Virus genome (UHGV): UHGV-1963057
Source: a virus
Reading direction: 5' to 3' (one strand)
Length of the DNA stretch: 21,781 nucleotides
Shown in pieces: positions 822 to 12,735 of the stretch (positions within the stretch are counted from its first letter, which is position 1; every line of letters begins with the position of its first letter). Position numbers and translations under genes: made by a program. The notes under the pieces were generated by a model, which ran no database searches, had not been told where the DNA came from, and saw only the letters and a list, made by a program, of their open reading frames with translations.

Positions 822-1991
822 ATGGGAAAGAATAGTCAACGTAGGCGAGATAATAAAATTAAGCGAGAAAATGAGAAAAAAAGAAACTTAGCGGCAAAGA
901 TAAATAAAATGTTGTATATAAAGCCTGATATATTTTTTGATGAATCAGGTAATACTGGCGGAAATTTACTCGATCCATTGCAACCTGTTTTTACCTTAAG
1001 TTCAAGTAGTATTAGTAAACAGGATGCGCTTAAGGCATTAGAACTAACCGGAAGCAAGTCTCCAACAGAAGCCCACTTTAAAACTCTTAGACGTAGAAAA
1101 TCTGGTCAGGATGGCATCATTAGGCTTCTTGAAAGCAAATATGTCAATGAAGAGAATGTTAAAATATACTTGGTCGATAAAAAATACATGCTAACAGCAA
1201 AGATTGTTGATATTTTGATCGAGACGTGGTGCTCTAATAGAGGAATAGATCTTTATATAAATGGACAGAATCTAGCTCTGTCTAATGTTTACTATTTCTG
1301 TTTCCCTGCTTTCTGTGGGGAGGAAAAAACAGAGGTAATGTATCAGTGTTTTATGAATATGATCAGAAGCCAATCGACTGAGTCAATTGATGAATTTTAC
1401 AGGGTAATTGATGAGTTAAAGATATGCTCAAGTGATAAGATATTCACAGATATAATAAACAGAATTAGTATTACCAGAAGCGATATTGATGATATATTGG
1501 AAGGTGTTGAGAAAAGCACATTAGATCCATCTATACCAAGCCTCTTTAGACACTGTGTAGAATGGGGTAAATTATACCCTAATGGTTTTTATATTAAGCA
1601 TGACGATTCCAAAGCTATTACAGAGAAGAAAGATATTTTTGATAAATTTATGGATATATCAAAAATTACGGAGGCATATGGTTATGATCGAAGAAAATTT
1701 GAATTGCCAATTAAAGCTCGTTCTTTGACATTCCATTCATCACAAGAGTATCCTCAATTACAAATTGTAGATATAGTAGCAAGTGCGGCTGCTTATTATG
1801 TTAACTGTCTAAAAAGAAATGACTTAGAAGATTATCTCTTTAAAGAACTTCAAAGAATAAAAATAGATAACTATTTTAAAAATATGGCCATTTGGCCTAC
1901 AACATATGTTACACCTCAAGAATTAGGCACAATTTATACTGGTGGGCGAAACCCTGCAGATGGAGTCGCTGATTATCTTTCTCAATATTAG
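822..1991 (+). CDS. Hypothetical cargo protein, 389 aa, DUF3800-like by motif recollection; Lys/Arg-rich N-terminal tail
   Basis: Long ORF with GAGG 8 nt upstream of the ATG. Visibly AT-rich compared with the flanking phage genes. N-terminal region contains IFFDESGNTG and the C-terminal region QIVDIVASAAAYY, which I recall as the hallmark ends of Pfam DUF3800. Sits between D and ogr on the opposite strand. Confidence 0.8.
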   Translation: MGKNSQRRRDNKIKRENEKKRNLAAKINKMLYIKPDIFFDESGNTGGNLLDPLQPVFTLSSSSISKQDALKALELTGSKSPTEAHFKTLRRRKSGQDGIIRLLESKYVNEENVKIYLVDKKYMLTAKIVDILIETWCSNRGIDLYINGQNLALSNVYYFCFPAFCGEEKTEVMYQCFMNMIRSQSTESIDEFYRVIDELKICSSDKIFTDIINRISITRSDIDDILEGVEKSTLDPSIPSLFRHCVEWGKLYPNGFYIKHDDSKAITEKKDIFDKFMDISKITEAYGYDRRKFELPIKARSLTFHSSQEYPQLQIVDIVASAAAYYVNCLKRNDLEDYLFKELQRIKIDNYFKNMAIWPTTYVTPQELGTIYTGGRNPADGVADYLSQY

Positions 1992-2082: not shown

Positions 2083-3192
2083 TCACGCTGTTTCTGCTAT
2101 CCATTCCGGGATTTTTGCCTCAAGCTCAAGCTGCGTGGTAAAGCCGCTGTTATCAATGGTGTGCTCGGCTTTTGCAATAATCCAGTCCTGATTATCAATC
2201 TCGCTTTTAAATCCTGTTACCGTGCCATGCATTTCGGGGTAGAGTTCTGCACGTCCACGCGCCAGCGTGATGGAAAATGATGCGGCTCCGCGTTGTAGCT
2301 GCTGCCACTTTGCCGCCGCTGCGCGTCTTGCTGCCTGCTCGTTCTGATAAGTCTTGCGTAACACAAACACATTGCCTTCCGCGCCTTCCATATAATCACC
2401 TTCACGGCTGCTGCTTTTCTCCTTTTTGGGTTTTGGCGGTTTGCGGCGTTTCACGCTGACTTTTTTCTTTTTCCCGTAATTAAGATCAAGCCAGTAAGCG
2501 CGTACCCCCGTATACGCCTCGCGGTCAGCAATGCGGAACTGATGGCGATCGCCGCTGCTGCGTGTGATGGCGAACGATGGCAACGGCTGGCCCTGTGCGT
2601 TCACGCCACCACCTGGCATGATGAATAACAGATTGCCGCTTTTTACCGTGGTGATTGCGCCCAGCATTTCCGCCATGCGCGTAAGGAAGGACATATCGCT
2701 TTCTTCGGTCTGGTCGGCGTGGTCGATTTCGATATCCATCAGCATTTCGCTGATTTGCGGTTTCAGACCATACCGATGAGCGATGGCGGATACCACACGC
2801 TCAACGGTCACATCATGCCAGGACACCTCACGTTTAACGTTAAATTCATCCCGAAAATCTGCGCTTCTGGCTGAAACAGTCAGCCTGTCCGGCGGTCCTT
2901 CGTGAGCGATTTCATCAACAATGTAAGTGCCTTTTTCTGTCAGCGGTTCTCCTTTCCAGCCAATGAGAACCGTCAGGCGCGCGCCCCGTGGCGGTAGCTG
3001 CAACTGACCATCCGCATCATCCAGCGTGATGGTGAGCTGGTCCGCGTCAAATCCCCGGTTGTCGGTCAGTGACAGGCTCATCAGGCGCTCTGCCACGCCT
3101 GACAGCGTTTTACCCTCCGCGAGAATATCAAAATCCGGCATTTTCACGGGGTCTGTGCCCTGACTGAGCAATTGCATGGTGGTATCGGTCAT
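2083..3192 (-). CDS. D: Tail protein D (late control gene D family)
   Basis: Translation matches the P2 gpD family over its length. Start chosen at ATG 3192 (MTDTTMQLL...), preceded by GGGAGGG with 5-nt spacing; the six-frame ORF extends further upstream to 3324 without an RBS. Confidence 0.88.
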   Translation of the reverse strand: MTDTTMQLLSQGTDPVKMPDFDILAEGKTLSGVAERLMSLSLTDNRGFDADQLTITLDDADGQLQLPPRGARLTVLIGWKGEPLTEKGTYIVDEIAHEGPPDRLTVSARSADFRDEFNVKREVSWHDVTVERVVSAIAHRYGLKPQISEMLMDIEIDHADQTEESDMSFLTRMAEMLGAITTVKSGNLLFIMPGGGVNAQGQPLPSFAITRSSGDRHQFRIADREAYTGVRAYWLDLNYGKKKKVSVKRRKPPKPKKEKSSSREGDYMEGAEGNVFVLRKTYQNEQAARRAAAAKWQQLQRGAASFSITLARGRAELYPEMHGTVTGFKSEIDNQDWIIAKAEHTIDNSGFTTQLELEAKIPEWIAETA

Positions 3193-3349
3193 CTGTTCCC
3201 TCCCTGTGCGGCATGGTCGCATGTGCGTGCGGAGGGGGTTACTGCTTTTTGTTGTCGCCGGATCGGGAGAACGGCACAGGGGTGAGATTACGCGCGTGGT
3301 GGGTGATGATTGTTGCCGAATCATTTAACGGATACAAGGGGCTAAAGCT

Positions 3350-4534
3350 ATGAGTGAAACTCGTTTTCATGGTGCCCGTGTTACGGAAAATACCGACCTG
3401 GTAACAGCGATTAACGATGTTGATTCCAGCGTTATCGGTATCGTGGCAACGGCGGATGATGCGGACGCGAAGCTGTTCCCGCTGAACAAGCCCACACTGC
3501 TGACCCGCGTCAATGACGTGCTGGGAAAATGCGGGACAACGGGGACGCTTTATCGTGCGCTTAAGGCCATCGCAGACCAGGTGAGCACAAAGGTGATCGT
3601 CGTTCGCGTGGCTGAACACAAAGAAGAAGACGGAAAGACGCAGGATCAACTGGTTATCGGTGGTTCTGAATCTGACGGCAGCTATACGGGGATGTATGCG
3701 CTGCTTGTTGCAGAGCAGGATGAAAGCATCGGATACCGTCCGCGTATTCTGGCCGCGCCGGAGCTGGACACGGAGGCGGTGACAAAATCCCTGTGCGTGA
3801 TTGCGGGTAAACTGCGCGCGTTTGTGTATGCCTCATGTCACGGCTGTAACACGATGGCTGAGGTGATTACCTACCGCCAGAAATTCAACGAACGTGAGGT
3901 GATGCTCTTATGGCCGGACTTCATCGCCTACAACCCGAAAAGTGGCAAAAACGAAACGTTCCCCGCGCCTGCCTATGCGTGCGGCCTTCGTGCGTACATT
4001 GACCATGAGCAGGGATGGCACAAATCACTGTCCAACGTTCCGGTTAAAAATGTGCTGGGGATGTCCAGGCATGTGTTCTGGTCGTTGCAGGCCGAAGACA
4101 GCGATGCCAACAGCCTCAACAACAAAGAAATCACGACCATTATTCGTCGCAACGGGTTCCGCTTCTGGGGCAACCGCACACCGGAAACGAACGCCTACAT
4201 CTTTGAGGTGTATACCCGAACCGCACAGGTGCTGGCTGATTCAATTGCGGAAGCGCAGTTTGAAACCATCGACAGTCCACTGACGCCTGCGAACGTGAAA
4301 GATGTTATCAGTGCCATCAGGGCAAAACTGGATTCACTGGTTACTGCCGGGAAACTGATTGGGGCGTCGTGCTGGTATGACGTGGTGGATAACGGCACCA
4401 CGAATTTACGTCAGGGGCGTGTGCGTATTCGCTACAAATATACGCCTGTTCCCCCGCTGGAAGACATGGAGCTTTACCAGTCGTTTACTGATGAATTCTT
4501 TGGTCCCGCATTTGCGGTGCTGGGAGGTGCCTGA
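3350..4534 (+). CDS. FI: Contractile tail sheath protein FI
   Basis: 394 aa; conserved sheath blocks LFPLNKP, GWHKSLSNV, IRRNGFRFWGNRT, YTRTAQV and YKYTPVPPLE match P2 FI as recalled. AAGGGG lies 8 nt upstream of the ATG. Confidence 0.95.
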   Translation: MSETRFHGARVTENTDLVTAINDVDSSVIGIVATADDADAKLFPLNKPTLLTRVNDVLGKCGTTGTLYRALKAIADQVSTKVIVVRVAEHKEEDGKTQDQLVIGGSESDGSYTGMYALLVAEQDESIGYRPRILAAPELDTEAVTKSLCVIAGKLRAFVYASCHGCNTMAEVITYRQKFNEREVMLLWPDFIAYNPKSGKNETFPAPAYACGLRAYIDHEQGWHKSLSNVPVKNVLGMSRHVFWSLQAEDSDANSLNNKEITTIIRRNGFRFWGNRTPETNAYIFEVYTRTAQVLADSIAEAQFETIDSPLTPANVKDVISAIRAKLDSLVTAGKLIGASCWYDVVDNGTTNLRQGRVRIRYKYTPVPPLEDMELYQSFTDEFFGPAFAVLGGA

Positions 4535-5630: not shown

Positions 5631-8430
5631 TATCCGGGTCGCTTTCAGCGCCGTTGACAGGCTGACCCGACCTGCAGAAAACGCACGCCGCCTGATGGGG
5701 CAGTTTGGTGACTCCATCCAGCGAACGCAGGGGGCGATCAAAAATCTCGAGCGTCAGGCGCGTTCATTTGAGCGCGCCCGCGACGCTGTCAGTAAAGCGG
5801 ATGCGGGTATCGTGAAAGCACGACGCCAGCTTAACGCCCTTAATCAGTTACAACGCACGGGTACAGTGCTCAGCGAAAAACAACAAAAGCTGATGCAGCA
5901 GTTAAGCACCCGGCTTGAACGCCTGAATGAATCGCGCACACGGGAGATTCAGAAAATGCGGGAGCTTGGCGGAGAGCTGAAACGCCACGGCATTTCCCTG
6001 ACAGGCAGCGATAACACCATCCAGCAGGCCATCAGACGCACCGAACAGTACAACAACCAGCTTGAACGCGAACGGCAGGCGCTTGCGCGTGTAACGCGGG
6101 CGCGTGAGCGGTATTCGCGCGCGCAGGAAACCGCGGGAAAACTGAAAACAGGTGGTGCACTGGCAACAGGTGCGGCAGCGGCGGGCGGCTATGCTGCCGG
6201 GCGTTTTTTGCAGCCCGCGATTGGGTTCGGGAAAGAGATGTCCCGCGTTCAGGCACTGACGCGAATCGACAAAAACAGCCCACAGTTTAAGGCGCTGCGT
6301 GAGCAGGCGTTAAAACTTGGCTCTGAAACGCAGTTCACCGCTGGAGATGCCGCCAGTGGACAGGCATTTCTTGCAATGGCTGGTTTTACTCCGCAGGCCA
6401 TTCAGGCTGCGCTTCCCGGCGTGCTGAGCATGGCAACGGCTGGCGGTATGGATCTCGGCGAGACGGCGGATATTGGCTCAAATATCCTGACGCAGTTCGG
6501 CCTCTCTGCTGACCAGATGGACCGGGTTGGCGACACGCTTACAGCGGCGTTTACCCGTACCAACACTGACCTTCGCGCGCTGGGCGAAACCATGAAATAT
6601 GCAGGTCCGGTGGCGGGTAAGCTGGGAATATCGCTGGAGCAGGCCGCTGCGATGGCGGGCGTGCTGGCGAATATGGGCATCAGAGGGAGTGATGCCGGGA
6701 CGGCAATGCGTGCCAGCCTGGCTCGTCTGGCATCACCGCCAAAGGCGGCAGCAGAGGCGCTGAAAGAGCTGGGTGTGGCTGTCTCTGACGCGAACGGCAA
6801 AATGCGCCCGATGGAGGATGTACTGGCCGACCTTTATAAAGCCACCCGCAAATACGGGGAAGTTGACCGGGTATCGTTCTTTAAGGACATTGCCGGAGAA
6901 GAGGCTTTCACATCGTTTATGGCGCTCGTTGATGCAGCGGGTGACGGCTCCTTACCCAAACTGAGAAAAGAACTTGAAGGCGCGCGCGGTGAGGCTGAAC
7001 GCACAGCAAAGGTTATGGCCAACAACCTTGACGGCGATCTGAAATCACTCGGCAGTGCATGGGAAGGGTTGCGCATCCGCATTGCAGATCTGATTGACGG
7101 TCCGCTGCGTTCTGTCACGCAGTGGCTCACGCGGGTGGTATCAAAGGTGACGGCGCTGGCGCAGGCCCATCCGGCACTGACGCGCCAGCTACTGATTGCA
7201 GGTGGGGCATTGCTGGCGATGACTGCAACGGTCGGCTCGTTGTCGTTGGCTATTGGTGTGCTTGCTGGCCCGCTGGCAAAACTGCGTCTTGGCTTTTCCC
7301 TCCTGACCGGATCAATGAATGCTGTCAGGCTCCTGCCAGCACTATGGGGAATGGTGACGGGTTCCGTTTCGTTACTGGGGGGCGCTATCGGGGCGCTGTT
7401 CAGCCCGGTCGGATTGATTGCTGCTGCGTTTGTGGCTGCGGCGGTTCTCATCTGGAAATACTGGGAACCCATCAAGGCGTTTTATGCAGGGGTGTTCAGT
7501 GGGATTATGGAACGGCTGGCTCCGTTGCGCGAAACCTTTGAACGGTTCGGTCCAGTTTTTGATGTCGTGCGCGATGGGATTATTCAGGTCTTTAACTGGT
7601 TTAAATCGCTGCTGTCACCGATGGAGTCCAGCAAGGAAACGCTGGATAAATGTACCAGTGCTGGCGAGGTATTCGGCAGGGTACTCGGTGGAGCGATAGA
7701 GCTTGTCCTGACGCCAACAAAAGCATTGATGGATTCACTGGCGTGGATACTTGAAAAGCTCGGAGTGCTTCCGGATGAAGCGGAACGGGCGAGAAAGAAA
7801 ATAGAGAACGCTTCAAAGGCTCCTGTAATGTGGGAATGGGATCCGGTTCTCAAGAAAATGGTTCAGAAACCATGGACTCCCGGCCCGGCCCCGTCAGATA
7901 AGGTCGACGACAAAAAAGGCGATAAACCCAGAGACAACAAACCGCTCACAGACAACAATACCGGTACGCTACGCAGACTCAGCAAAATTGCTGATAACAC
8001 AGGTAAGCTGGTTGATGAGACGAAAAAACGCATTGGCCCCGGCGATATTGTCTTTAAGAACCTGCCCCGCGCACTTGCTGTTCGTGGGGAGTGGCAGGAG
8101 CGGAAGATTGCGCAGGTCAGTAAGCCTGCCCCCGCAATTACTATCACACCCGTGGTTCCGGCTCCGCTGCCTCCGGCGCTGGTCCCTGTTGTTGCGGCCA
8201 GCTCCCGCCCGGTGGCGGAGGCTATACGATCGCCAGTGGCATCAGTTCCTGCAACTTCCCGTAACCGGGAGCCTGTTGCCTCCGGATTTGGCGGTGAAAT
8301 TCATGTTCATCTGCATAACGTTGTTACACAGAATCCCCGCGAACTGGCGAAACTGATTGGCGAAATGGTCAGGGCAGAAATGGAACGGCGCGCCCGTGCC
8401 GGGCGTGGCAGTTTTTACGATAAAGATTGA
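5608..8430 (+). CDS. T: Tail tape measure protein T (start at ATG 5608 or 5617)
   Basis: About 940 aa with a coiled-coil-like N-terminal part, a central hydrophobic Gly/Ala-rich segment and a Pro-rich C-terminal region; position after E/E'. The listed ORF begins at GTG 5581; first in-frame ATGs are 5608 and 5617. Confidence 0.9.
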   Translation: MQTMKTLDIRVAFSAVDRLTRPAENARRLMGQFGDSIQRTQGAIKNLERQARSFERARDAVSKADAGIVKARRQLNALNQLQRTGTVLSEKQQKLMQQLSTRLERLNESRTREIQKMRELGGELKRHGISLTGSDNTIQQAIRRTEQYNNQLERERQALARVTRARERYSRAQETAGKLKTGGALATGAAAAGGYAAGRFLQPAIGFGKEMSRVQALTRIDKNSPQFKALREQALKLGSETQFTAGDAASGQAFLAMAGFTPQAIQAALPGVLSMATAGGMDLGETADIGSNILTQFGLSADQMDRVGDTLTAAFTRTNTDLRALGETMKYAGPVAGKLGISLEQAAAMAGVLANMGIRGSDAGTAMRASLARLASPPKAAAEALKELGVAVSDANGKMRPMEDVLADLYKATRKYGEVDRVSFFKDIAGEEAFTSFMALVDAAGDGSLPKLRKELEGARGEAERTAKVMANNLDGDLKSLGSAWEGLRIRIADLIDGPLRSVTQWLTRVVSKVTALAQAHPALTRQLLIAGGALLAMTATVGSLSLAIGVLAGPLAKLRLGFSLLTGSMNAVRLLPALWGMVTGSVSLLGGAIGALFSPVGLIAAAFVAAAVLIWKYWEPIKAFYAGVFSGIMERLAPLRETFERFGPVFDVVRDGIIQVFNWFKSLLSPMESSKETLDKCTSAGEVFGRVLGGAIELVLTPTKALMDSLAWILEKLGVLPDEAERARKKIENASKAPVMWEWDPVLKKMVQKPWTPGPAPSDKVDDKKGDKPRDNKPLTDNNTGTLRRLSKIADNTGKLVDETKKRIGPGDIVFKNLPRALAVRGEWQERKIAQVSKPAPAITITPVVPAPLPPALVPVVAASSRPVAEAIRSPVASVPATSRNREPVASGFGGEIHVHLHNVVTQNPRELAKLIGEMVRAEMERRARAGRGSFYDKD

Positions 8431-8436
8431 GGAGTC

Positions 8437-8931
8437 ATGGCCATGATGATGATCTACGGCATGTTTGTTTTTGAGCTGCGCACATTGCCGCATCAGCAGT
8501 TACAGCAAAACAAAAGCTGGCGGCATGTGAAAAATGAACGCGTTAACCGTTCAGCAAGCTGGCAGTATATCGGCGCAGGTGATGATCGCATCGTGCTTTC
8601 CGGCGTGCTTTATCCTGAAATTACAGGTGGCGAAGTGTCGCTTTCGTTGCTGACCACGCAGGCATATACAGGACGCCCCTGGCCTCTGATTGATGGTGTC
8701 GGGCAGATTTACGGCATGTATGTACTGACTGAAACGAATACGACCCGTTCCGAGTTTGATCGCTACGGTAAGGCGAAAAAGATAGAATTTTCACTGACTC
8801 TTGAACGCTGTGATGAGGATTTGCGGGAGCGCCTGCAATCCTCATCGTTCAGTGATATGCTGTCCGGCTTCAAAGATAAGGTCACATCATCCCTTAACAG
8901 CGCGGCCAGCTCCGTTAAAGGGCTGTTTTGA
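8437..8931 (+). CDS. U: Tail protein U (start may be ATG 8443 or 8446)
   Basis: 164 aa; FVFELRTLPHQ...WRH...GAGDD...PWPLIDG pattern matches the P2 gpU family. GGAG at 8431-8434 is best spaced for the ATG at 8443. Confidence 0.88.
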   Translation: MAMMMIYGMFVFELRTLPHQQLQQNKSWRHVKNERVNRSASWQYIGAGDDRIVLSGVLYPEITGGEVSLSLLTTQAYTGRPWPLIDGVGQIYGMYVLTETNTTRSEFDRYGKAKKIEFSLTLERCDEDLRERLQSSSFSDMLSGFKDKVTSSLNSAASSVKGLF

Positions 8932-8938
8932 TTAACGC

Positions 8939-8974
8939 AAAACCGCTAATGGTCAGATTAGCGGTTTTTATTTT
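8939..8974. terminator. Bidirectional rho-independent terminator between convergent U and invertase genes
   Basis: Perfect 10-bp stem AACCGCTAAT (8941-8950) / ATTAGCGGTT (8957-8966), extendable to 12 bp with the AA/TT pairs at 8939-8940 and 8967-8968; loop GGTCAG; T-rich run on the plus strand and AAAA on its 5' side. Confidence 0.7.
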
Positions 8975-9557
8975 CCTGAGTCTGCCTGGTTGTTTCTTCA
9001 GCCTGTATATCGCCTACAGGGTGATAACGATAAATCGTCGATATGCCGATGTCGTAAATGATCGCCAGTTGTTTCCTGTCATGACCGTTTTTAATCAGCC
9101 TCGCTATTTGCTCGTGTTGTTCTTTTGTCAACTTCGGGCGACGTCCGCCAATGCGTCCTTGTGCGCGTGCTGCTGCCAGCCCGGCCAGTGTACGCTCTAC
9201 AATTAATTCACGTTCCATTTCGGCTAAAGCCCCCATGACGTGAAAAAAGAAACGCCCCATGGGTGTTGATGTGTCAATGCTGTCCGTCAGACTACGGAAA
9301 TTAACACCTTTTTCCCGCAATTCCTCAATAAGCGTGATCAGGTGTTTCATACTTCTGCCCAGTCTGTCCAGCTTCCAGACAACCAGCGTATCTCCTTCTG
9401 ATAGCGTTCTGAGCAGTTTTTTCAATCCCGGTCTGGCTGATTTCGTTCCGCTGATTTTATCTTCAAAAATCAGTTCACATCCTGCGCAGTTCAGTGCATT
9501 GCGTTGTAAATCCGTGTTCTGGTCATTTGTTGACACACGAATATAGCCAATTTGCAT
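8958..9557 (-). CDS. Serine recombinase, Hin/Gin/Cin/Pin-family DNA invertase
   Basis: 199 aa. MQIGYIRVSTNDQNTDLQRNAL...GDTLVVWKLDRLGRS...MGRFFFHVMGALAEMERELIVERT...GRIGGRRPKLT... is near-identical in pattern to Hin/Gin, including the catalytic Ser in RVST and a C-terminal HTH. Confidence 0.95.
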   Translation of the reverse strand: MQIGYIRVSTNDQNTDLQRNALNCAGCELIFEDKISGTKSARPGLKKLLRTLSEGDTLVVWKLDRLGRSMKHLITLIEELREKGVNFRSLTDSIDTSTPMGRFFFHVMGALAEMERELIVERTLAGLAAARAQGRIGGRRPKLTKEQHEQIARLIKNGHDRKQLAIIYDIGISTIYRYHPVGDIQAEETTRQTQENKNR

Positions 9558-9612
9558 AAAAAAACATCCTCTTTGTTTCGTGAAAAATACAGAGTTGGTA
9601 TAGGTAGGGATA

Positions 9613-9638
9613 AAAACGAAAACGTTGGTTTAGGAGAA
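9613..9638. other. Invertase crossover site (hix/gix-like 26-bp site), invertase-proximal
   Basis: AAAACGAAAACG-TT-GGTTTAGGAGAA; the right half fits the GGTTTnnGAnAA half-site and the central dinucleotide falls in the shared GLGE codons. Lies 56 bp from the invertase start. Confidence 0.7.
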
Positions 9639-10127
9639 GCGGCGAAAAGGGATGTGGGCACGACAGTCGGAACCGTTGCCGCTGGTGATGATTTACGCAT
9701 AATAGGAGCACTTCAAAAGGCAAATAATCTTTATGAGTTAACAAATAAATCTGACGCAAGAGCTAATCTTGGGTTAGGAACCGTTGCAACAAAAAACGTG
9801 GGAAATAGTGCTGGGCAAATACCTGATATGTCTTACTGGTCTTCACCGGCAGGCGGAATTAATTTCCCGAATGGGTTCCAGATGCGATTCGGGACTATCG
9901 CTGGTACTGGTGGAAAATTATTTTCTACGCCATTTACAAATCAGTGCTATGGCATTGTTTTCGGACAAACATATGGAGCCAACTACTGGATGTTCAGCCC
10001 GATGTACAGAGCATCTGATCTGAGTAATACCAGTTTTGCATTCATTAACAAAACCTGGTCTGGCGTTCCGGGGGTAGGTTCTCAGGACGCTGGTGAATCA
10101 GTTTTTTATATTGCAGTAGGGTATTAA
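9627..10127 (+). CDS. Silent alternative tail-fibre C-terminal cassette (Hv'), expressed only after inversion
   Basis: Open frame from the crossover core to TAA 10125-10127. Joining at the core fuses in frame to the H constant region (...DYLGLGE|AAKRDVG...). The listed ORF start at 9552 lies outside the segment and is not a real start. Confidence 0.75.
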   Translation, partial: GLGEAAKRDVGTTVGTVAAGDDLRIIGALQKANNLYELTNKSDARANLGLGTVATKNVGNSAGQIPDMSYWSSPAGGINFPNGFQMRFGTIAGTGGKLFSTPFTNQCYGIVFGQTYGANYWMFSPMYRASDLSNTSFAFINKTWSGVPGVGSQDAGESVFYIAVGY

Positions 10128-10128
10128 T

Positions 10129-10572
10129 ATGGAAATGGTTTATAGCGCCTCAAAAAATAGTTTTTTCGCTAAAAATGATGTGGCGAAATATGAACAGGCC
10201 GGATGGGAACTTGCTGATGTTGTCGAAGTGACATATGACACTTACCTGGAATTTATTGAAGACAGAACGTTGCAAGGGAAAGTACGCATCGCGGGTGATG
10301 ATGGCCTTCCCACCTGGGGGGAAATTCCACCGCCAACTCATGAGGAACAAATTGCTGCAGCCGAACTGGAAAAGCAGCAATTGATTAATCAGGTCAACGA
10401 ATACATATACAGTAAGCAATGGCCTGGTAAAGCGGCGATTGGTCGCCTGAAAGGTGAGGAACTGGCGCAATATAATTTGTGGCTGGATTATCTGGACGCA
10501 CTGGAACTGGTCGATACTTCCGGTGCGCCAGATATTGAATGGCCTACGCCTCCGGCAGTTCAGGCCAGATGA
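10129..10572 (+). CDS. Tail fibre assembly protein (alternative, paired with Hv')
   Basis: 147 aa starting 1 nt after the Hv' stop; the C-terminal ...DYLDALELVDTSGAPDIEWPTPP mirrors the C-terminus of the minus-strand assembly protein. 3' end overlaps its convergent partner. Confidence 0.8.
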   Translation: MEMVYSASKNSFFAKNDVAKYEQAGWELADVVEVTYDTYLEFIEDRTLQGKVRIAGDDGLPTWGEIPPPTHEEQIAAAELEKQQLINQVNEYIYSKQWPGKAAIGRLKGEELAQYNLWLDYLDALELVDTSGAPDIEWPTPPAVQAR

Positions 10573-11137
10573 CGTCCGGCGCTGTGCTGGTATCTGTTGC
10601 CGTCACCGCGTCAATATAATCCAGCACAGCGTTAAGTCGGGTGTTTTCTGGCTGCGTCAGCTTCCGCCCGGCCTGTAATTTCAGTTGAATCAGACTGATG
10701 GAAGCCATTGCAGCATCAATCAGCGACTGGCGCTGTGCTTCTGCAGCTTCTACTGCGGCGCTATGCTGTGCCTCGGTATCCGTCACCCATTTCTCACCAT
10801 CCCATTTATCGTATGGCGTTAACGGTGAAAGCGTGACATAACCGTCTTTGATGGCACCGATATAATCCACTGTAACAGCTGCGCCATTTTCAGTTGAGTA
10901 AACGGTCTCATTGCGATGGTCTTCTTCATGGCTCCATCCCTTACCCGTAAATACTGCCACTCTTCCCGGAATGTATTCGCCCGGGTCAATACCAGTGGAA
11001 CAAACGGGCATACTTACGCCAGTATTAATATATTCATCAGACCAGCCCGTATATTCAGACGTTACTGCATCATAATAATAACAACGCATATCACCCGGCA
11101 CTGTAGCCAGCCCATTTTCATCAAAAACAGGTTTCAT
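10544..11137 (-). CDS. G: Tail fibre assembly protein G (currently expressed orientation)
   Basis: 197 aa; start overlaps the H stop; C-terminal ...LDYIDAVTATDTSTAPDVIWPELP is typical of fibre assembly chaperones. Confidence 0.85.
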   Translation of the reverse strand: MKPVFDENGLATVPGDMRCYYYDAVTSEYTGWSDEYINTGVSMPVCSTGIDPGEYIPGRVAVFTGKGWSHEEDHRNETVYSTENGAAVTVDYIGAIKDGYVTLSPLTPYDKWDGEKWVTDTEAQHSAAVEAAEAQRQSLIDAAMASISLIQLKLQAGRKLTQPENTRLNAVLDYIDAVTATDTSTAPDVIWPELPEA

Positions 11138-12735
11138 TATGCAGCCCTCACAATATAATTAAAGGCGATGTTACGTGGACGGTTTTCATTAGCTGTTGGC
11201 ACGACACGAGAGGCGTCGAATCCAAGGTCATCGGTTTTGCCTATATCAGTTGTGTTATTCGGCATTCTCGCAGATCGTGTTCCTGCATCATAAAAAGCCC
11301 CTCTGATTGCATCAAAAGACATACCGATCCCGCCATCTGCGAATCCCTCAATATTTCTTATTGCATCCCCCTGTGAAGATAATAATTGTCGCCCGGCATC
11401 CACACCACGTCCGTCATCCCAGCCACGAATAAATTCACCGCGTAAATCCGGCAATTTATTTGTCGGATAAACCTTTGCCAGTTCCGGGTATTCTTCAGCA
11501 GAAAAAGCCGCACCGTTGCATTTCAGCCAGCCAGTAGGCGGTGTGGCTGAAGGCCACGGAACAGGCACACCAACGGGTAATGCCGAACCTTCTCCCAAAC
11601 CAAGGTAATCAAGAACTCCCTGAGTGCTGGTTTTACCAAGAATGGCACGTCCAACACTTGTCAACGCGGTTAACGCGGCACGATCTGCCCCTGTAAAATA
11701 TGGGAGTTTATCTGCTGATGTAGCAAGCTCCGCCAGCGCCGTCAGGGTGGCATCCTTCGGTTGCTTACCCGCAAGCGCGTTAGTCATGGTGGTCGCAAAA
11801 TTCGGGTCATTGCCCAGCGCTGCAGCCAGTTCGTTCAGCGTGTTCAGTGCATCAGGTGACGAATCTACAAGTGCGGCAATCGCAGCCATAACGAAAGCCG
11901 TGCTTGCGATCTGGGTACTATTAGTCCCCTGTGGCGCTGTTGGTGTTGTTGGCGTTCCGGTCAGTGCCGGGCTGTTTAATGGTGCTTTCTTGTTCGTTTC
12001 ATCCATTACCGCCTTAACAGCTTTTGGTGTCGCTGCCAGCGTTTCAGACGTGCTGTTCGTGGCGCTACTGAGCTGAACAATCCCTTTTTGTGTAGTGGTG
12101 GCGTTCTGGGCGGTATATTTCCCGTTAGCCAGGTCATATGCAGCCTTAACCGCTTTCGGTGTTGCGGCCAGTGTTTCTGATTCACTGTTAATTGCACTGC
12201 TTAACTGAGTAAAACCTTTTACGGTCAGCGAGGCGTCCGGGTGACGTCGTGACTGTTCGTGTTCTGATATTTTATCATCCACATATTTGCGGGTTGCCAG
12301 AACCACAGACGGGTCGATTTTCAGCGTGATGGCTTCGGTGTTCGTGACAACCAGAATCATGCGGATAGTCTGGGTGCGTCCACTGCCTTCCTGCAACTGC
12401 GGTTTGTACGTTTCCGGGCAGTTTGCCACCGCAATGAGTGCACCTTCATCATCATAAAGACCAATCTCACGGATCCAGAATCCTCCCTCGTTTTCAGGGA
12501 TGATTTGCTCCGCAATAATCTGGCTCTGATTGTTAGGGTCAACACTCAGAAGATTCAGCGGTGCAATGCGTTTCTGGTTAATCAGTTTTGTTTGTGCAGG
12601 GTCTGGTGTTGGTAACACACCATTTGCATCACCAACGGCCATTTGCGTCAGATTCAGCTTACTGCCGAGCATCGTCGCGTTAGCCAGTCGTGCTGCGCCC
12701 TGATTAGTCAGAATGGCGTAGTATTTCACTGTCAT
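11137..12735 (-). CDS. H: Tail fibre protein H (constant N-terminal region fused to the current variable C-terminus)
   Basis: 532 aa; N-terminus MTVKYYAILTNQGAARLANA... and repeated TPKAVKA motifs are typical of P2/Mu/P1-type fibres. Crossover site lies near codon 377. ATG overlaps the stop of I. Confidence 0.9.
   Translation of the reverse strand: MTVKYYAILTNQGAARLANATMLGSKLNLTQMAVGDANGVLPTPDPAQTKLINQKRIAPLNLLSVDPNNQSQIIAEQIIPENEGGFWIREIGLYDDEGALIAVANCPETYKPQLQEGSGRTQTIRMILVVTNTEAITLKIDPSVVLATRKYVDDKISEHEQSRRHPDASLTVKGFTQLSSAINSESETLAATPKAVKAAYDLANGKYTAQNATTTQKGIVQLSSATNSTSETLAATPKAVKAVMDETNKKAPLNSPALTGTPTTPTAPQGTNSTQIASTAFVMAAIAALVDSSPDALNTLNELAAALGNDPNFATTMTNALAGKQPKDATLTALAELATSADKLPYFTGADRAALTALTSVGRAILGKTSTQGVLDYLGLGEGSALPVGVPVPWPSATPPTGWLKCNGAAFSAEEYPELAKVYPTNKLPDLRGEFIRGWDDGRGVDAGRQLLSSQGDAIRNIEGFADGGIGMSFDAIRGAFYDAGTRSARMPNNTTDIGKTDDLGFDASRVVPTANENRPRNIAFNYIVRAA
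11590..11615. other. Invertase crossover site inside H (distal site)
   Basis: TTCTCCCAAACC-AA-GGTAATCAAGAA; the left half fits the TTnTCnnAAACC half-site exactly. It is the inverted counterpart of the 9613-9638 site, matching it at 13 of 14 positions across the conserved half-site and core. Confidence 0.7.

What the first reader, a model, noticed from the sequence alone, without database searches (positions are those of the whole stretch)
9613..11615. Shufflon-like invertible tail-fibre segment with both crossover sites readable, occupying the G-FI slot
A Hin/Gin-type invertase (8958-9557) sits beside a ~2 kb segment holding two alternative fibre C-terminal cassettes and two convergent fibre-assembly genes. 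The 26-bp sites at 9613-9638 and 11590-11615 are inverted copies sharing TTCTCC(C/T)AAACCAA, with the core dinucleotide inside a GLGE codon block present in both cassettes, so inversion gives an in-frame alternative H protein (about 377 constant residues plus about 166 alternative). P2 itself has no such module; here it lies where P2 carries Z/fun. Host range should be phase-variable, and the fibre genes would remain switchable even if the prophage is defective.
Basis: partly seen in the sequence, partly recalled or inferred. Interest (0 to 1): 0.5.

Follow-up and report, generated by a model that had tools for sequence, protein, structure and literature searches.

The report
Invertible tail-fibre switch in E. 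coli prophage
This is a real but ordinary Gin/Pin-type DNA switch in a P2-like E. coli prophage that flips a 2-kb segment to give the phage tail fibre one of two alternative tips, and the same switch has already been shown to flip in the laboratory in a sister prophage.

Summary
Two 26-bp sites (9613-9638 and 11590-11615) are the only copies of TTCTCC(C/T)AAACCAA in the window. They lie in inverted orientation around a 1,977-bp segment that carries two fibre C-terminal cassettes and two convergent chaperone genes. A 199-aa serine invertase sits beside it (72.5% identical to Mu Gin).

Flipping the segment in silico gives an in-frame 544-aa fibre (378 constant + 166 residues); the present fibre is 532 aa (378 + 154). 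That exact 544-aa protein exists in NCBI. Its E. coli contig matches the flipped window over 5,227 bp with 2 mismatches. Two O157:H7 strains differ only by this inversion, with breakpoints at the sites.

The invertase is 100% identical to that of a P2-like prophage of EPEC E2348/69. The inversion end points published for that prophage (sequencing plus PCR) fall on the homologous sites.

Corrections:
- It is a two-site, two-state serine-invertase switch, not shufflon-like. Relatives have 3 or 7 sites.
- It lies between the chaperone genes and gpU, where two late operons converge, not in a G-FI slot.
- The core dinucleotide is in the codon before GLGE.
- A Fis enhancer is inferred by homology only.

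Already known; low interest.

The parts
8958..9557 (-). Serine DNA invertase (199 aa) of the Gin/Cin/Pin/Hin group. It lies outside the invertible segment, with its 5' end facing site L.
   Evidence: Resolvase and HTH_7 domains. E = 3e-91 to the Gin structures 4m6f/3uj3. 72.5% identical to Mu Gin and 100% identical to the E2348/69 prophage invertase WP_001165545.1. Ser9, H106, M114, R153/L154 and K47/R50 were read from the sequence.
9613..9638 (-). Crossover site L (26 bp; core TT at 9625-9626). The inner half TTCTCCTAAACC is consensus-like; the outer half is degenerate.
   Evidence: It aligns column for column with Mu gixR and the e14 site. The outer half is identical to the E2348/69 site that lies at a published inversion end point.
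11590..11615 (+). Crossover site R (26 bp; core AA at 11602-11603), inside the fibre gene H.
   Evidence: The 26 bp are identical in the O157:H7 prophages, where the inversion breakpoint maps to this site. Its outer half is identical to that of the E2348/69 site at a published inversion end point. The orientation break against contig L012 also falls here.
9627..11601 (.). Invertible segment between the two cores (1,975 bp; 1,977 bp counting one core dinucleotide).
   Evidence: The in-silico flip matches natural contig L012 over 5,227 bp with 2 mismatches, and matches strain DETEC-S589 over 8400-10907 at 97.4%.
11602..12735 (-). Constant part of tail-fibre gene H (378 codons), outside the segment.
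   Evidence: Phage_tail_fib and Phage_fiber_2 domains. The frame was computed.
11137..11601 (-). Fibre C-terminal cassette that is currently expressed (154 aa, tail-collar type).
   Evidence: Collar domain. 60% identical to e14 StfE.
10544..11137 (-). Chaperone (tail-fibre assembly protein, 197 aa) paired with the expressed cassette.
   Evidence: Caudo_TAP, E = 3.7e-27. 63.5% identical to e14 TfaE.
9627..10127 (+). Silent alternative fibre C-terminal cassette (166 aa, gp53-like C-terminus). It has no start of its own.
   Evidence: Weak Gp53-like_C hit, E = 0.0077, below the Pfam cut-off. Relatives are annotated 'gp53-like domain-containing protein'. The fused 544-aa protein exists 100% identical in NCBI.
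10129..10572 (+). Chaperone (147 aa) paired with the silent cassette. Its 3' end overlaps the other chaperone gene by 29 nt.
   Evidence: Caudo_TAP, E = 4e-30. 55% identical to e14 TfaP.
9473..9535 (-). Predicted recombinational enhancer. Two Fis-like 15-bp cores (9521-9535 and 9473-9487) lie 48 bp apart, about 98 bp from the core of L. This is inferred by homology only.
   Evidence: The cores match the consensus at 9/11 and 8/11 positions, but 190 equally good pairs occur in the window. The positions are conserved with Mu gin and e14 pinE, and the DNA is identical to E2348/69. The expected geometry comes from PMC3798978.
8939..8968 (+). Hairpin terminator between gpU and the invertase. It overlaps the invertase stop codon.
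   Evidence: Consensus scan only.

Best explanation
This is a classical two-state, serine-invertase tail-fibre switch of the Gin/Cin/Pin type, in a P2-like E. coli prophage related to the Gemsvirus phage 500465-2 and the P88-like Xuanwuvirus phages.

Proposed mechanism, by analogy with Gin and Hin:
1. Invertase dimers bind sites L and R.
2. With a Fis-bound enhancer in the 5' part of the invertase gene, they form an invertasome on supercoiled DNA.
3. All four strands are cut at the 2-bp core (TT/AA), one pair of subunits rotates 180 degrees, and the DNA is religated.

The flip exchanges what follows codon 378 of fibre gene H. In the present orientation H ends in a 154-aa collar-type tip followed by its 197-aa chaperone. 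After the flip it ends in a 166-aa gp53-like tip followed by its 147-aa chaperone. The cassette facing away from H has no promoter and no 5' part, so it is silent. Phage released from a lysogen population should therefore carry one of two receptor-binding tips.

What is shown: the sites, the reading frames, the identity of the invertase, and that both orientations occur naturally with breakpoints at the sites.

What is inferred: Fis and enhancer dependence, the flipping rate, and the effect on host range.
For: - Sites and frame.
- Invertase: 72.5% identical to Gin, with Ser9 present.
- Same layout as Mu. The invertase 5' end faces the segment, 68 bp from core to start codon here against 67 bp in Mu, and site L aligns with gixR.
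- O157:H7 strains FRIK944 and BB24-1 have 100% identical flanks. A 1,920-bp inner segment is inverted at 99.9% identity, with breakpoints on the homologous sites.
- The predicted 544-aa flipped fibre exists 100% identical in NCBI.
- Its contig matches the flipped window over 5,227 bp with 2 mismatches. Other E. coli assemblies carry the native state at 99.985%.
- The predicted post-flip left junction is contiguous in 733 complete E. coli records, and the native right junction in 217.
- The invertase is 100% identical to that of the E2348/69 prophage. That prophage's three sites fall at NC_011601.1 ~1891695, 1892127 and 1893703. These are the inversion end points found by sequencing and PCR (PMC4272514 Table S1).
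- The cassettes and chaperones are 55-63% identical to e14 StfE, TfaE and TfaP.
Against: - No reads from the source culture are available, so flipping in this particular strain is not shown directly.
- The outer half of site L is a poor match to the half-site consensus. The same outer half does recombine in E2348/69.
- The Fis enhancer cannot be told from chance by consensus matching.
- No sigma-70-like promoter for the invertase was found by the simple scan.
- The host-range consequence is untested.
Confidence: 0.93

Rival explanations
1. The switch is a frozen relic in this genome. The sites and invertase look intact, but the segment no longer flips at a meaningful rate, for example because the outer half of L is degenerate or the invertase is not expressed.
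For: The outer half of L (AAAACGAAAACG) matches the half-site consensus poorly. No promoter-like site was found upstream of the invertase. The spacer between L and the start codon is unrelated to that of Mu, e14 or the O157 prophage.
Against: The same outer half-site, the same spacer (one T fewer) and an identical invertase flip in E2348/69 cultures. The same prophage, at 99.96% identity, is found in both orientations in different E. coli assemblies.
Confidence: 0.04
2. The two orientations arise by RecA-dependent homologous recombination between the short inverted repeats. The neighbouring invertase plays no part.
For: The comparisons show only that breakpoints lie within the 14-18-bp shared repeat. 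They do not show which enzyme acted.
Against: Repeats of 14-18 bp are well below the length RecA uses efficiently (established knowledge). The repeats have the 12-2-12 architecture of gix/hix/pix sites and align with gixR. A Gin homologue sits beside them in every relative examined.
Confidence: 0.01
3. The main selected role is in the lysogen rather than the virion. One fibre variant, the gp53-like one, would block adsorption of other phages, as reported for the e14 chimera StfE2.
For: The e14 P segment is homologous. Its inversion product StfE2, which has a gp53-like C-terminus, was reported to block T2 adsorption (PMC12529663). The window's silent cassette has a weak gp53-like hit.
Against: Here the cassette fuses to a complete 378-aa fibre shaft inside what looks like a complete late-gene cluster. 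It should therefore be made only after induction. The gp53-like cassette shows no BLASTP match to e14 StfP. No experiment bears on this locus.
Confidence: 0.02

Closest known systems
Invertible fibre locus of the P2-like prophage of EPEC E2348/69 (NC_011601.1 ~1891695-1893703; Goldberg et al. 2014, PMC4272514)
   Same: The invertase protein is 100% identical. The outer half-sites of L and R are identical. The invertase 5' region and spacer DNA are identical apart from one T. The prophage backbone is the same (T, U, invertase, cassettes, H, I, J). Flipping was shown there by sequencing and PCR.
   Different: E2348/69 has three sites, three alternative tips, one chaperone gene and four states. 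The window has two sites, two tips, two chaperone genes and two states. The cassette sequences differ.
G segment and Gin of phage Mu
   Same: Both have a constant fibre 5' part outside the segment, two tip cassettes each with its own chaperone arranged convergently inside it, and the invertase outside with its 5' end about 67 bp from the nearest site. The invertases are 72.5% identical and L aligns with gixR.
   Different: The phage backbone differs (Mu versus P2-like). The Mu segment is 3 kb and its constant part is about 170 aa. The cassettes are unrelated except for a weak chaperone match.
P segment and PinE of the defective prophage e14 (E. coli K-12)
   Same: The contents are homologous: the collar cassette matches StfE (60%) and the chaperones match TfaE (63.5%) and TfaP (55%). 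The chaperone genes show the same 29-nt 3' overlap, and the site sequence is nearly the same.
   Different: e14 is a lambdoid remnant with a truncated fibre gene. Here the fibre gene is complete and sits in a P2-type tail cluster.
Min system of plasmid p15B and the 7-site relative in E. coli F163 (L019)
   Same: Same invertase family and the same type of site within fibre genes (the p15B comparison is from established knowledge).
   Different: Those are multiple-inversion systems with many cassettes. The window has only two sites.
Shufflon of IncI plasmids (R64, Rci)
   Same: Both swap C-terminal ends of a surface adhesin by DNA inversion.
   Different: The R64 shufflon uses a tyrosine recombinase (Rci), many sfx sites and a pilus tip protein (PilV), and needs no Fis enhancer (established knowledge). 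None of these applies here.

Membership tests
Gin/Cin/Pin/Hin DNA-inversion systems (enhancer-dependent serine invertases) | A small serine recombinase with an N-terminal catalytic domain carrying the active-site serine (Ser9 in Gin) and a C-terminal helix-turn-helix. | tested here: met
   Resolvase E = 1.5e-51 and HTH_7 E = 1.4e-12. Aligns over residues 1-185 with Gin, with Ser9 in place. 72.5% identical to Gin.
Gin/Cin/Pin/Hin DNA-inversion systems (enhancer-dependent serine invertases) | Two 26-bp sites in inverted orientation, each made of two 12-bp half-sites around a 2-bp core, with matching cores. | tested here: met
   L and R have cores TT and AA on the + strand. They are the only two such sites in the window. 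L aligns with gixR and the e14 site. The outer half of L is degenerate.
Gin/Cin/Pin/Hin DNA-inversion systems (enhancer-dependent serine invertases) | The invertase gene lies next to and outside the invertible segment. | tested here: met
   The start codon is 68 bp from the core of L, compared with 67 bp in Mu.
Gin/Cin/Pin/Hin DNA-inversion systems (enhancer-dependent serine invertases) | A recombinational enhancer with two Fis sites at the ends of a ~65-bp element, about 100 bp from one site, inside the 5' part of the invertase gene. | tested here: inconclusive
   Cores matching 9/11 and 8/11 of the consensus lie at 9521-9535 and 9473-9487, 48 bp apart and ~98 bp from the core of L. However, 190 equally good pairs occur in the window, and conservation there is confounded by the coding sequence. 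The DNA is identical to the flipping E2348/69 locus. The expected geometry is from PMC3798978.
Gin/Cin/Pin/Hin DNA-inversion systems (enhancer-dependent serine invertases) | The segment is actually found in both orientations, with breakpoints at the sites. | tested here: met
   (natural genomes). (published sequencing and PCR on the prophage with the identical invertase).
Gin/Cin/Pin/Hin DNA-inversion systems (enhancer-dependent serine invertases) | Dependence on Fis and on negative supercoiling. | not testable with these tools
   Indirect only. The protein keeps H106 and M114, which are changed in Fis-independent mutants. It also keeps R153/L154 and K47/R50, the equivalents of the Hin residues needed for Fis activation (read from the sequence; PMC3798978).
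Shufflon (R64/Rci type) | An Rci-type tyrosine recombinase. | tested here: not met
   The only recombinase at the locus is a serine recombinase.
Shufflon (R64/Rci type) | Several invertible segments bounded by more than two sites. | tested here: not met
   Exactly two sites in the window. Relatives have 3 or 7.
P2 'G-FI slot' (position of Z/fun) | The module lies between the chaperone gene G and the sheath gene FI. | tested here: not met
   On the far side the module is flanked by the 3' end of gpU, not by FI. FI is at 3350-4534 on the + strand. The P2 gene order is given.

The most novel reading that the evidence does not exclude
In the lysogen the switch might also act as a defence toggle. 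Flipping to the gp53-like tip would yield a product that interferes with adsorption of unrelated phages, as reported for the e14 chimera StfE2. The invertase might also act in trans on other Pin-type segments in the same cell. Nothing here supports this beyond homology to the e14 segment.
Probability: 0.05. Interest if true: 0.4.

Novelty: already known. Interest (0 to 1): 0.1.

Why it matters
It matters little as a discovery. Invertible tail-fibre segments driven by Gin/Pin-type invertases are textbook cases (Mu, P1, e14), and this prophage lineage has already been shown to flip in EPEC E2348/69.

There are practical consequences:
- Lysogens of this prophage are mixed populations, so phage stocks will have two host ranges.
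- Short-read assemblies tend to break at the sites.
- Automatic annotation splits the fibre gene into fragments in one of the two orientations.

Tried and rejected
- Extra sites. I scanned the whole window with the 26-bp and half-site consensus to test the 'shufflon-like' label. I found none.
- Fis enhancer by consensus. Two cores lie at the expected place with the expected spacing, but 190 equally good pairs occur in the window, so the match carries no weight on its own.
- Invertase promoter. The simple sigma-70 scan gave nothing upstream of the gene.
- Megablast of the whole 4.4-kb region against complete E. coli genomes. No record covers 80% or more. This is because the receptor-binding parts of the cassettes (about 9662-10320 and 11188-11587) are mosaic, not because the locus is unusual.
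- NCBIfam names for the fibre and chaperone proteins. There were no hits.
- Johnson's 2015 review. I tried an id recalled from memory, to cite the 48-bp Fis spacing, but the paper is not held. That spacing therefore rests on my own knowledge.
- Chance explanation. I considered that the repeats merely reflect a conserved GLGE motif in two homologous cassettes. I rejected this because the inversion breakpoints in natural genomes fall on them.
Full report
**What is in the sequence**

The - strand ORF at 8958-9557 encodes a 199-aa protein with a Resolvase catalytic domain (E = 1.5e-51) and a resolvase helix-turn-helix (E = 1.4e-12). It aligns over residues 1-185 with the solved structure of the Mu G-segment invertase Gin (E = 3e-91), and the active-site serine is in place. 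It is 72.5% identical to Gin.

To its right lie four elements:
- On the + strand, an ORF with no proper start (9552-10127).
- A 147-aa tail-fibre assembly gene (10129-10572).
- On the - strand, a 197-aa assembly gene (10544-11137).
- A 532-aa fibre gene H (11137-12735), with P2-type fibre N-terminus, fibre repeats and a tail-collar domain.

**The two sites**

The motif TTCTCCNAAACCAA occurs exactly twice in the 21.8-kb window, at 9625-9638 (-) and 11590-11603 (+). The next best match has two mismatches.

The full 26-mers are TTCTCCTAAACC-AA-CGTTTTCGTTTT (L, read on the - strand) and TTCTCCCAAACC-AA-GGTAATCAAGAA (R). They agree at 17 of 26 positions. They have the 12-2-12 layout of gix/hix/pix sites. 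L aligns column for column with Mu gixR (TTCCTGTAAACCGAGGTTTTGGATAA) and with the site next to pinE in e14.

The inner halves are good half-sites. The outer half of L is degenerate.

**Frame**

The constant part of H, from 12735 down to the core at 11602, is exactly 378 codons. The core TT is the second and third base of a Leu codon in H and of a Val codon in the silent cassette. The inner half-sites encode G-L-G-E in both.

Flipping 9627-11601 in silico gives a continuous 544-aa fibre (378 + 166). The present fibre is 378 + 154. The core sits just before the GLGE block rather than inside it.

**Does it flip? Evidence from other genomes**

1. Two O157:H7 strains, FRIK944 and BB24-1, carry the same prophage with identical tape-measure, gpU, invertase, gpI and gpJ proteins. 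Their flanks are 100% identical. A 1,920-bp inner block is inverted at 99.9% identity. The two alignments overlap by 18 nt exactly on the homologous sites.
2. Strain DETEC-S589 matches the in-silico flipped window continuously from the tape-measure gene through the invertase and site L into the collar cassette and its chaperone (8400-10907, 97.4%).
3. The predicted 544-aa flipped fibre is present 100% identical over its full length in NCBI as an E. coli 'phage tail protein'.
4. The contig encoding it (GCA_001265355.1, JHRF01000271.1) matches the flipped window over all 5,227 bp with 2 mismatches. Against the native window it splits at site R.
5. Other E. coli assemblies (GCA_001266335.1, GCA_047714625.1) carry the native orientation at 99.985%. 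One contig, from GCA_001265165.1, ends at window position 9628, two bases from the core of L.
6. Across complete E. coli genomes, the predicted post-flip left junction is contiguous in 733 records and the native right junction in 217.

**Experimental anchor**

The window's invertase is 100% identical to WP_001165545.1 of a P2-like prophage of EPEC E2348/69.

That locus has three sites, at about 1891695, 1892127 and 1893703 of NC_011601.1. Table S1 of Goldberg et al. 2014 (PMC4272514) lists inversions 1891695-1893703 and 1892127-1893703 in a P2 prophage of this strain. They were detected by paired-end sequencing and confirmed by PCR.

The outer half-sites of L and R are the same in the window and in E2348/69. 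So are the spacer between L and the invertase start and the first ~180 nt of the invertase gene, apart from one T in a T-run.

**Mechanism**

By homology, the reaction should be the Gin/Hin one. Dimers bind L and R, and a Fis-bound enhancer joins them to form an invertasome. Double-strand cuts are made at the 2-bp core, subunits rotate 180 degrees, and the DNA is religated.

The enhancer in Hin is a 65-bp element with a Fis site at each end, about 100 bp from hixL (PMC3798978). At the homologous place here there are two 15-bp cores. They lie at 9521-9535 (9 of 11 consensus positions) and 9473-9487 (8 of 11). They are 48 bp apart, and the first is about 98 bp from the core of L.

This is weak evidence. 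The consensus is so loose that 190 equally good pairs occur in the window, and the region also encodes the conserved catalytic motif. The enhancer therefore rests on homology and on identity to the E2348/69 DNA.

The protein keeps H106 and M114, which are changed in Fis-independent mutants. It also keeps the equivalents of Hin R154/L155 and R48/K51, which are needed for Fis activation (read from the sequence; PMC3798978). This pattern fits a Fis-dependent enzyme.

**Consequence**

Each orientation places one tip cassette and its own chaperone directly behind the constant part of H in the late operon. The other pair faces the wrong way, has no 5' end, and is silent. This is the Mu arrangement (Sc-Sv-U versus Sc-Sv'-U').

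The contents are homologous to the e14 P segment. The collar tip is 60% identical to StfE, and the chaperones are 63.5% and 55% identical to TfaE and TfaP.

An alternating host range is inferred from Mu and P1 (established knowledge) and was not tested here.

The window is from E. coli and belongs to a P2-like prophage. Its closest phage records are Gemsvirus (phage 500465-2) and Xuanwuvirus (P88-like phages), all annotated with a 'DNA invertase' at this place.

The gene order is gpD (-), then FI-FII-E-T-U (+), then invertase (-), the segment, and H-I-J-W-V-S-R (-). The switch therefore sits where two late operons converge, between gpU and the fibre chaperones. It is not between G and FI, where P2 has fun(Z).

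With two sites and a serine invertase it is not shufflon-like. Relatives with 3 sites (E2348/69) or 7 sites and six cassettes (strain F163) are multiple-inversion systems.

**Verdict**

The placement and the 'shufflon' label are wrong, and the feature is an already known kind of element in an already studied prophage lineage. Interest is low.

Noticed in passing
L002 4679-6169; L004 4164-5669; L007 5672-7162: When the gp53-like cassette is joined to H, RefSeq annotation splits the fibre gene into a short 'gp53-like domain-containing protein' plus pseudogene fragments. The ORF is in fact intact (501-506 aa). This is an annotation artefact tied to one orientation of the switch.
   Followed up: partly
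window 9558-9624: The spacer between site L and the invertase start codon exists in two unrelated versions. The window and E2348/69 share one. The O157 prophage, phage 500465-2, Mu and e14 share the other. The change begins at the outer half-site, and the first invertase codons differ too (MQIGYI versus MLIGYV). The window has a run of 7 T before the ATG where E2348/69 has 6. The invertase promoter was not identified.
   Followed up: partly
L019 1513-5499 (E. coli F163, NZ_OY754349.1): A relative whose invertase is the protein found in DETEC-S589 (99.5% identical to the window's) has seven crossover sites. One faces six others that are in direct orientation, with six short fibre-tip cassettes and a single chaperone gene. 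This is a true multiple-inversion version of the locus.
   Followed up: partly
L016 (GCA_001265165.1, JHQV01000098.1), contig end = window 9628: A short-read contig carrying the native arrangement stops two bases from the core of site L. This is what a mixed-orientation culture would do to an assembly.
   Followed up: no
window 9662-10320 and 11188-11587: Identity to the closest complete E. coli prophages is lost over the receptor-binding parts of both cassettes. It returns at the sites and in the chaperone 3' parts, so the tips are mosaic modules.
   Followed up: no
window 10544-10572: The two convergent chaperone genes overlap by 29 nt at their 3' ends. The same overlap is seen in e14 (tfaP/tfaE), and 28-29-nt overlaps occur in the relatives that carry two chaperone genes.
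   Followed up: no
window 822-1991 (+) and 2083-3324 (-): A 389-aa DUF3800 protein lies next to gpD. gpD is on the opposite strand from FI-U rather than following U as in P2. The DUF3800 gene may be cargo.
   Followed up: no
L008 6193-8306 (E. coli 2022E04-002): This is a decayed relative. The invertase and segment are followed by a fragment of a second recombinase gene and a DUF262 gene instead of the fibre and baseplate genes.
   Followed up: no
window 8939-8968: A 12-bp-stem hairpin followed by a T-run lies between gpU and the invertase and overlaps the invertase stop codon. It may terminate transcription from both directions.
   Followed up: no
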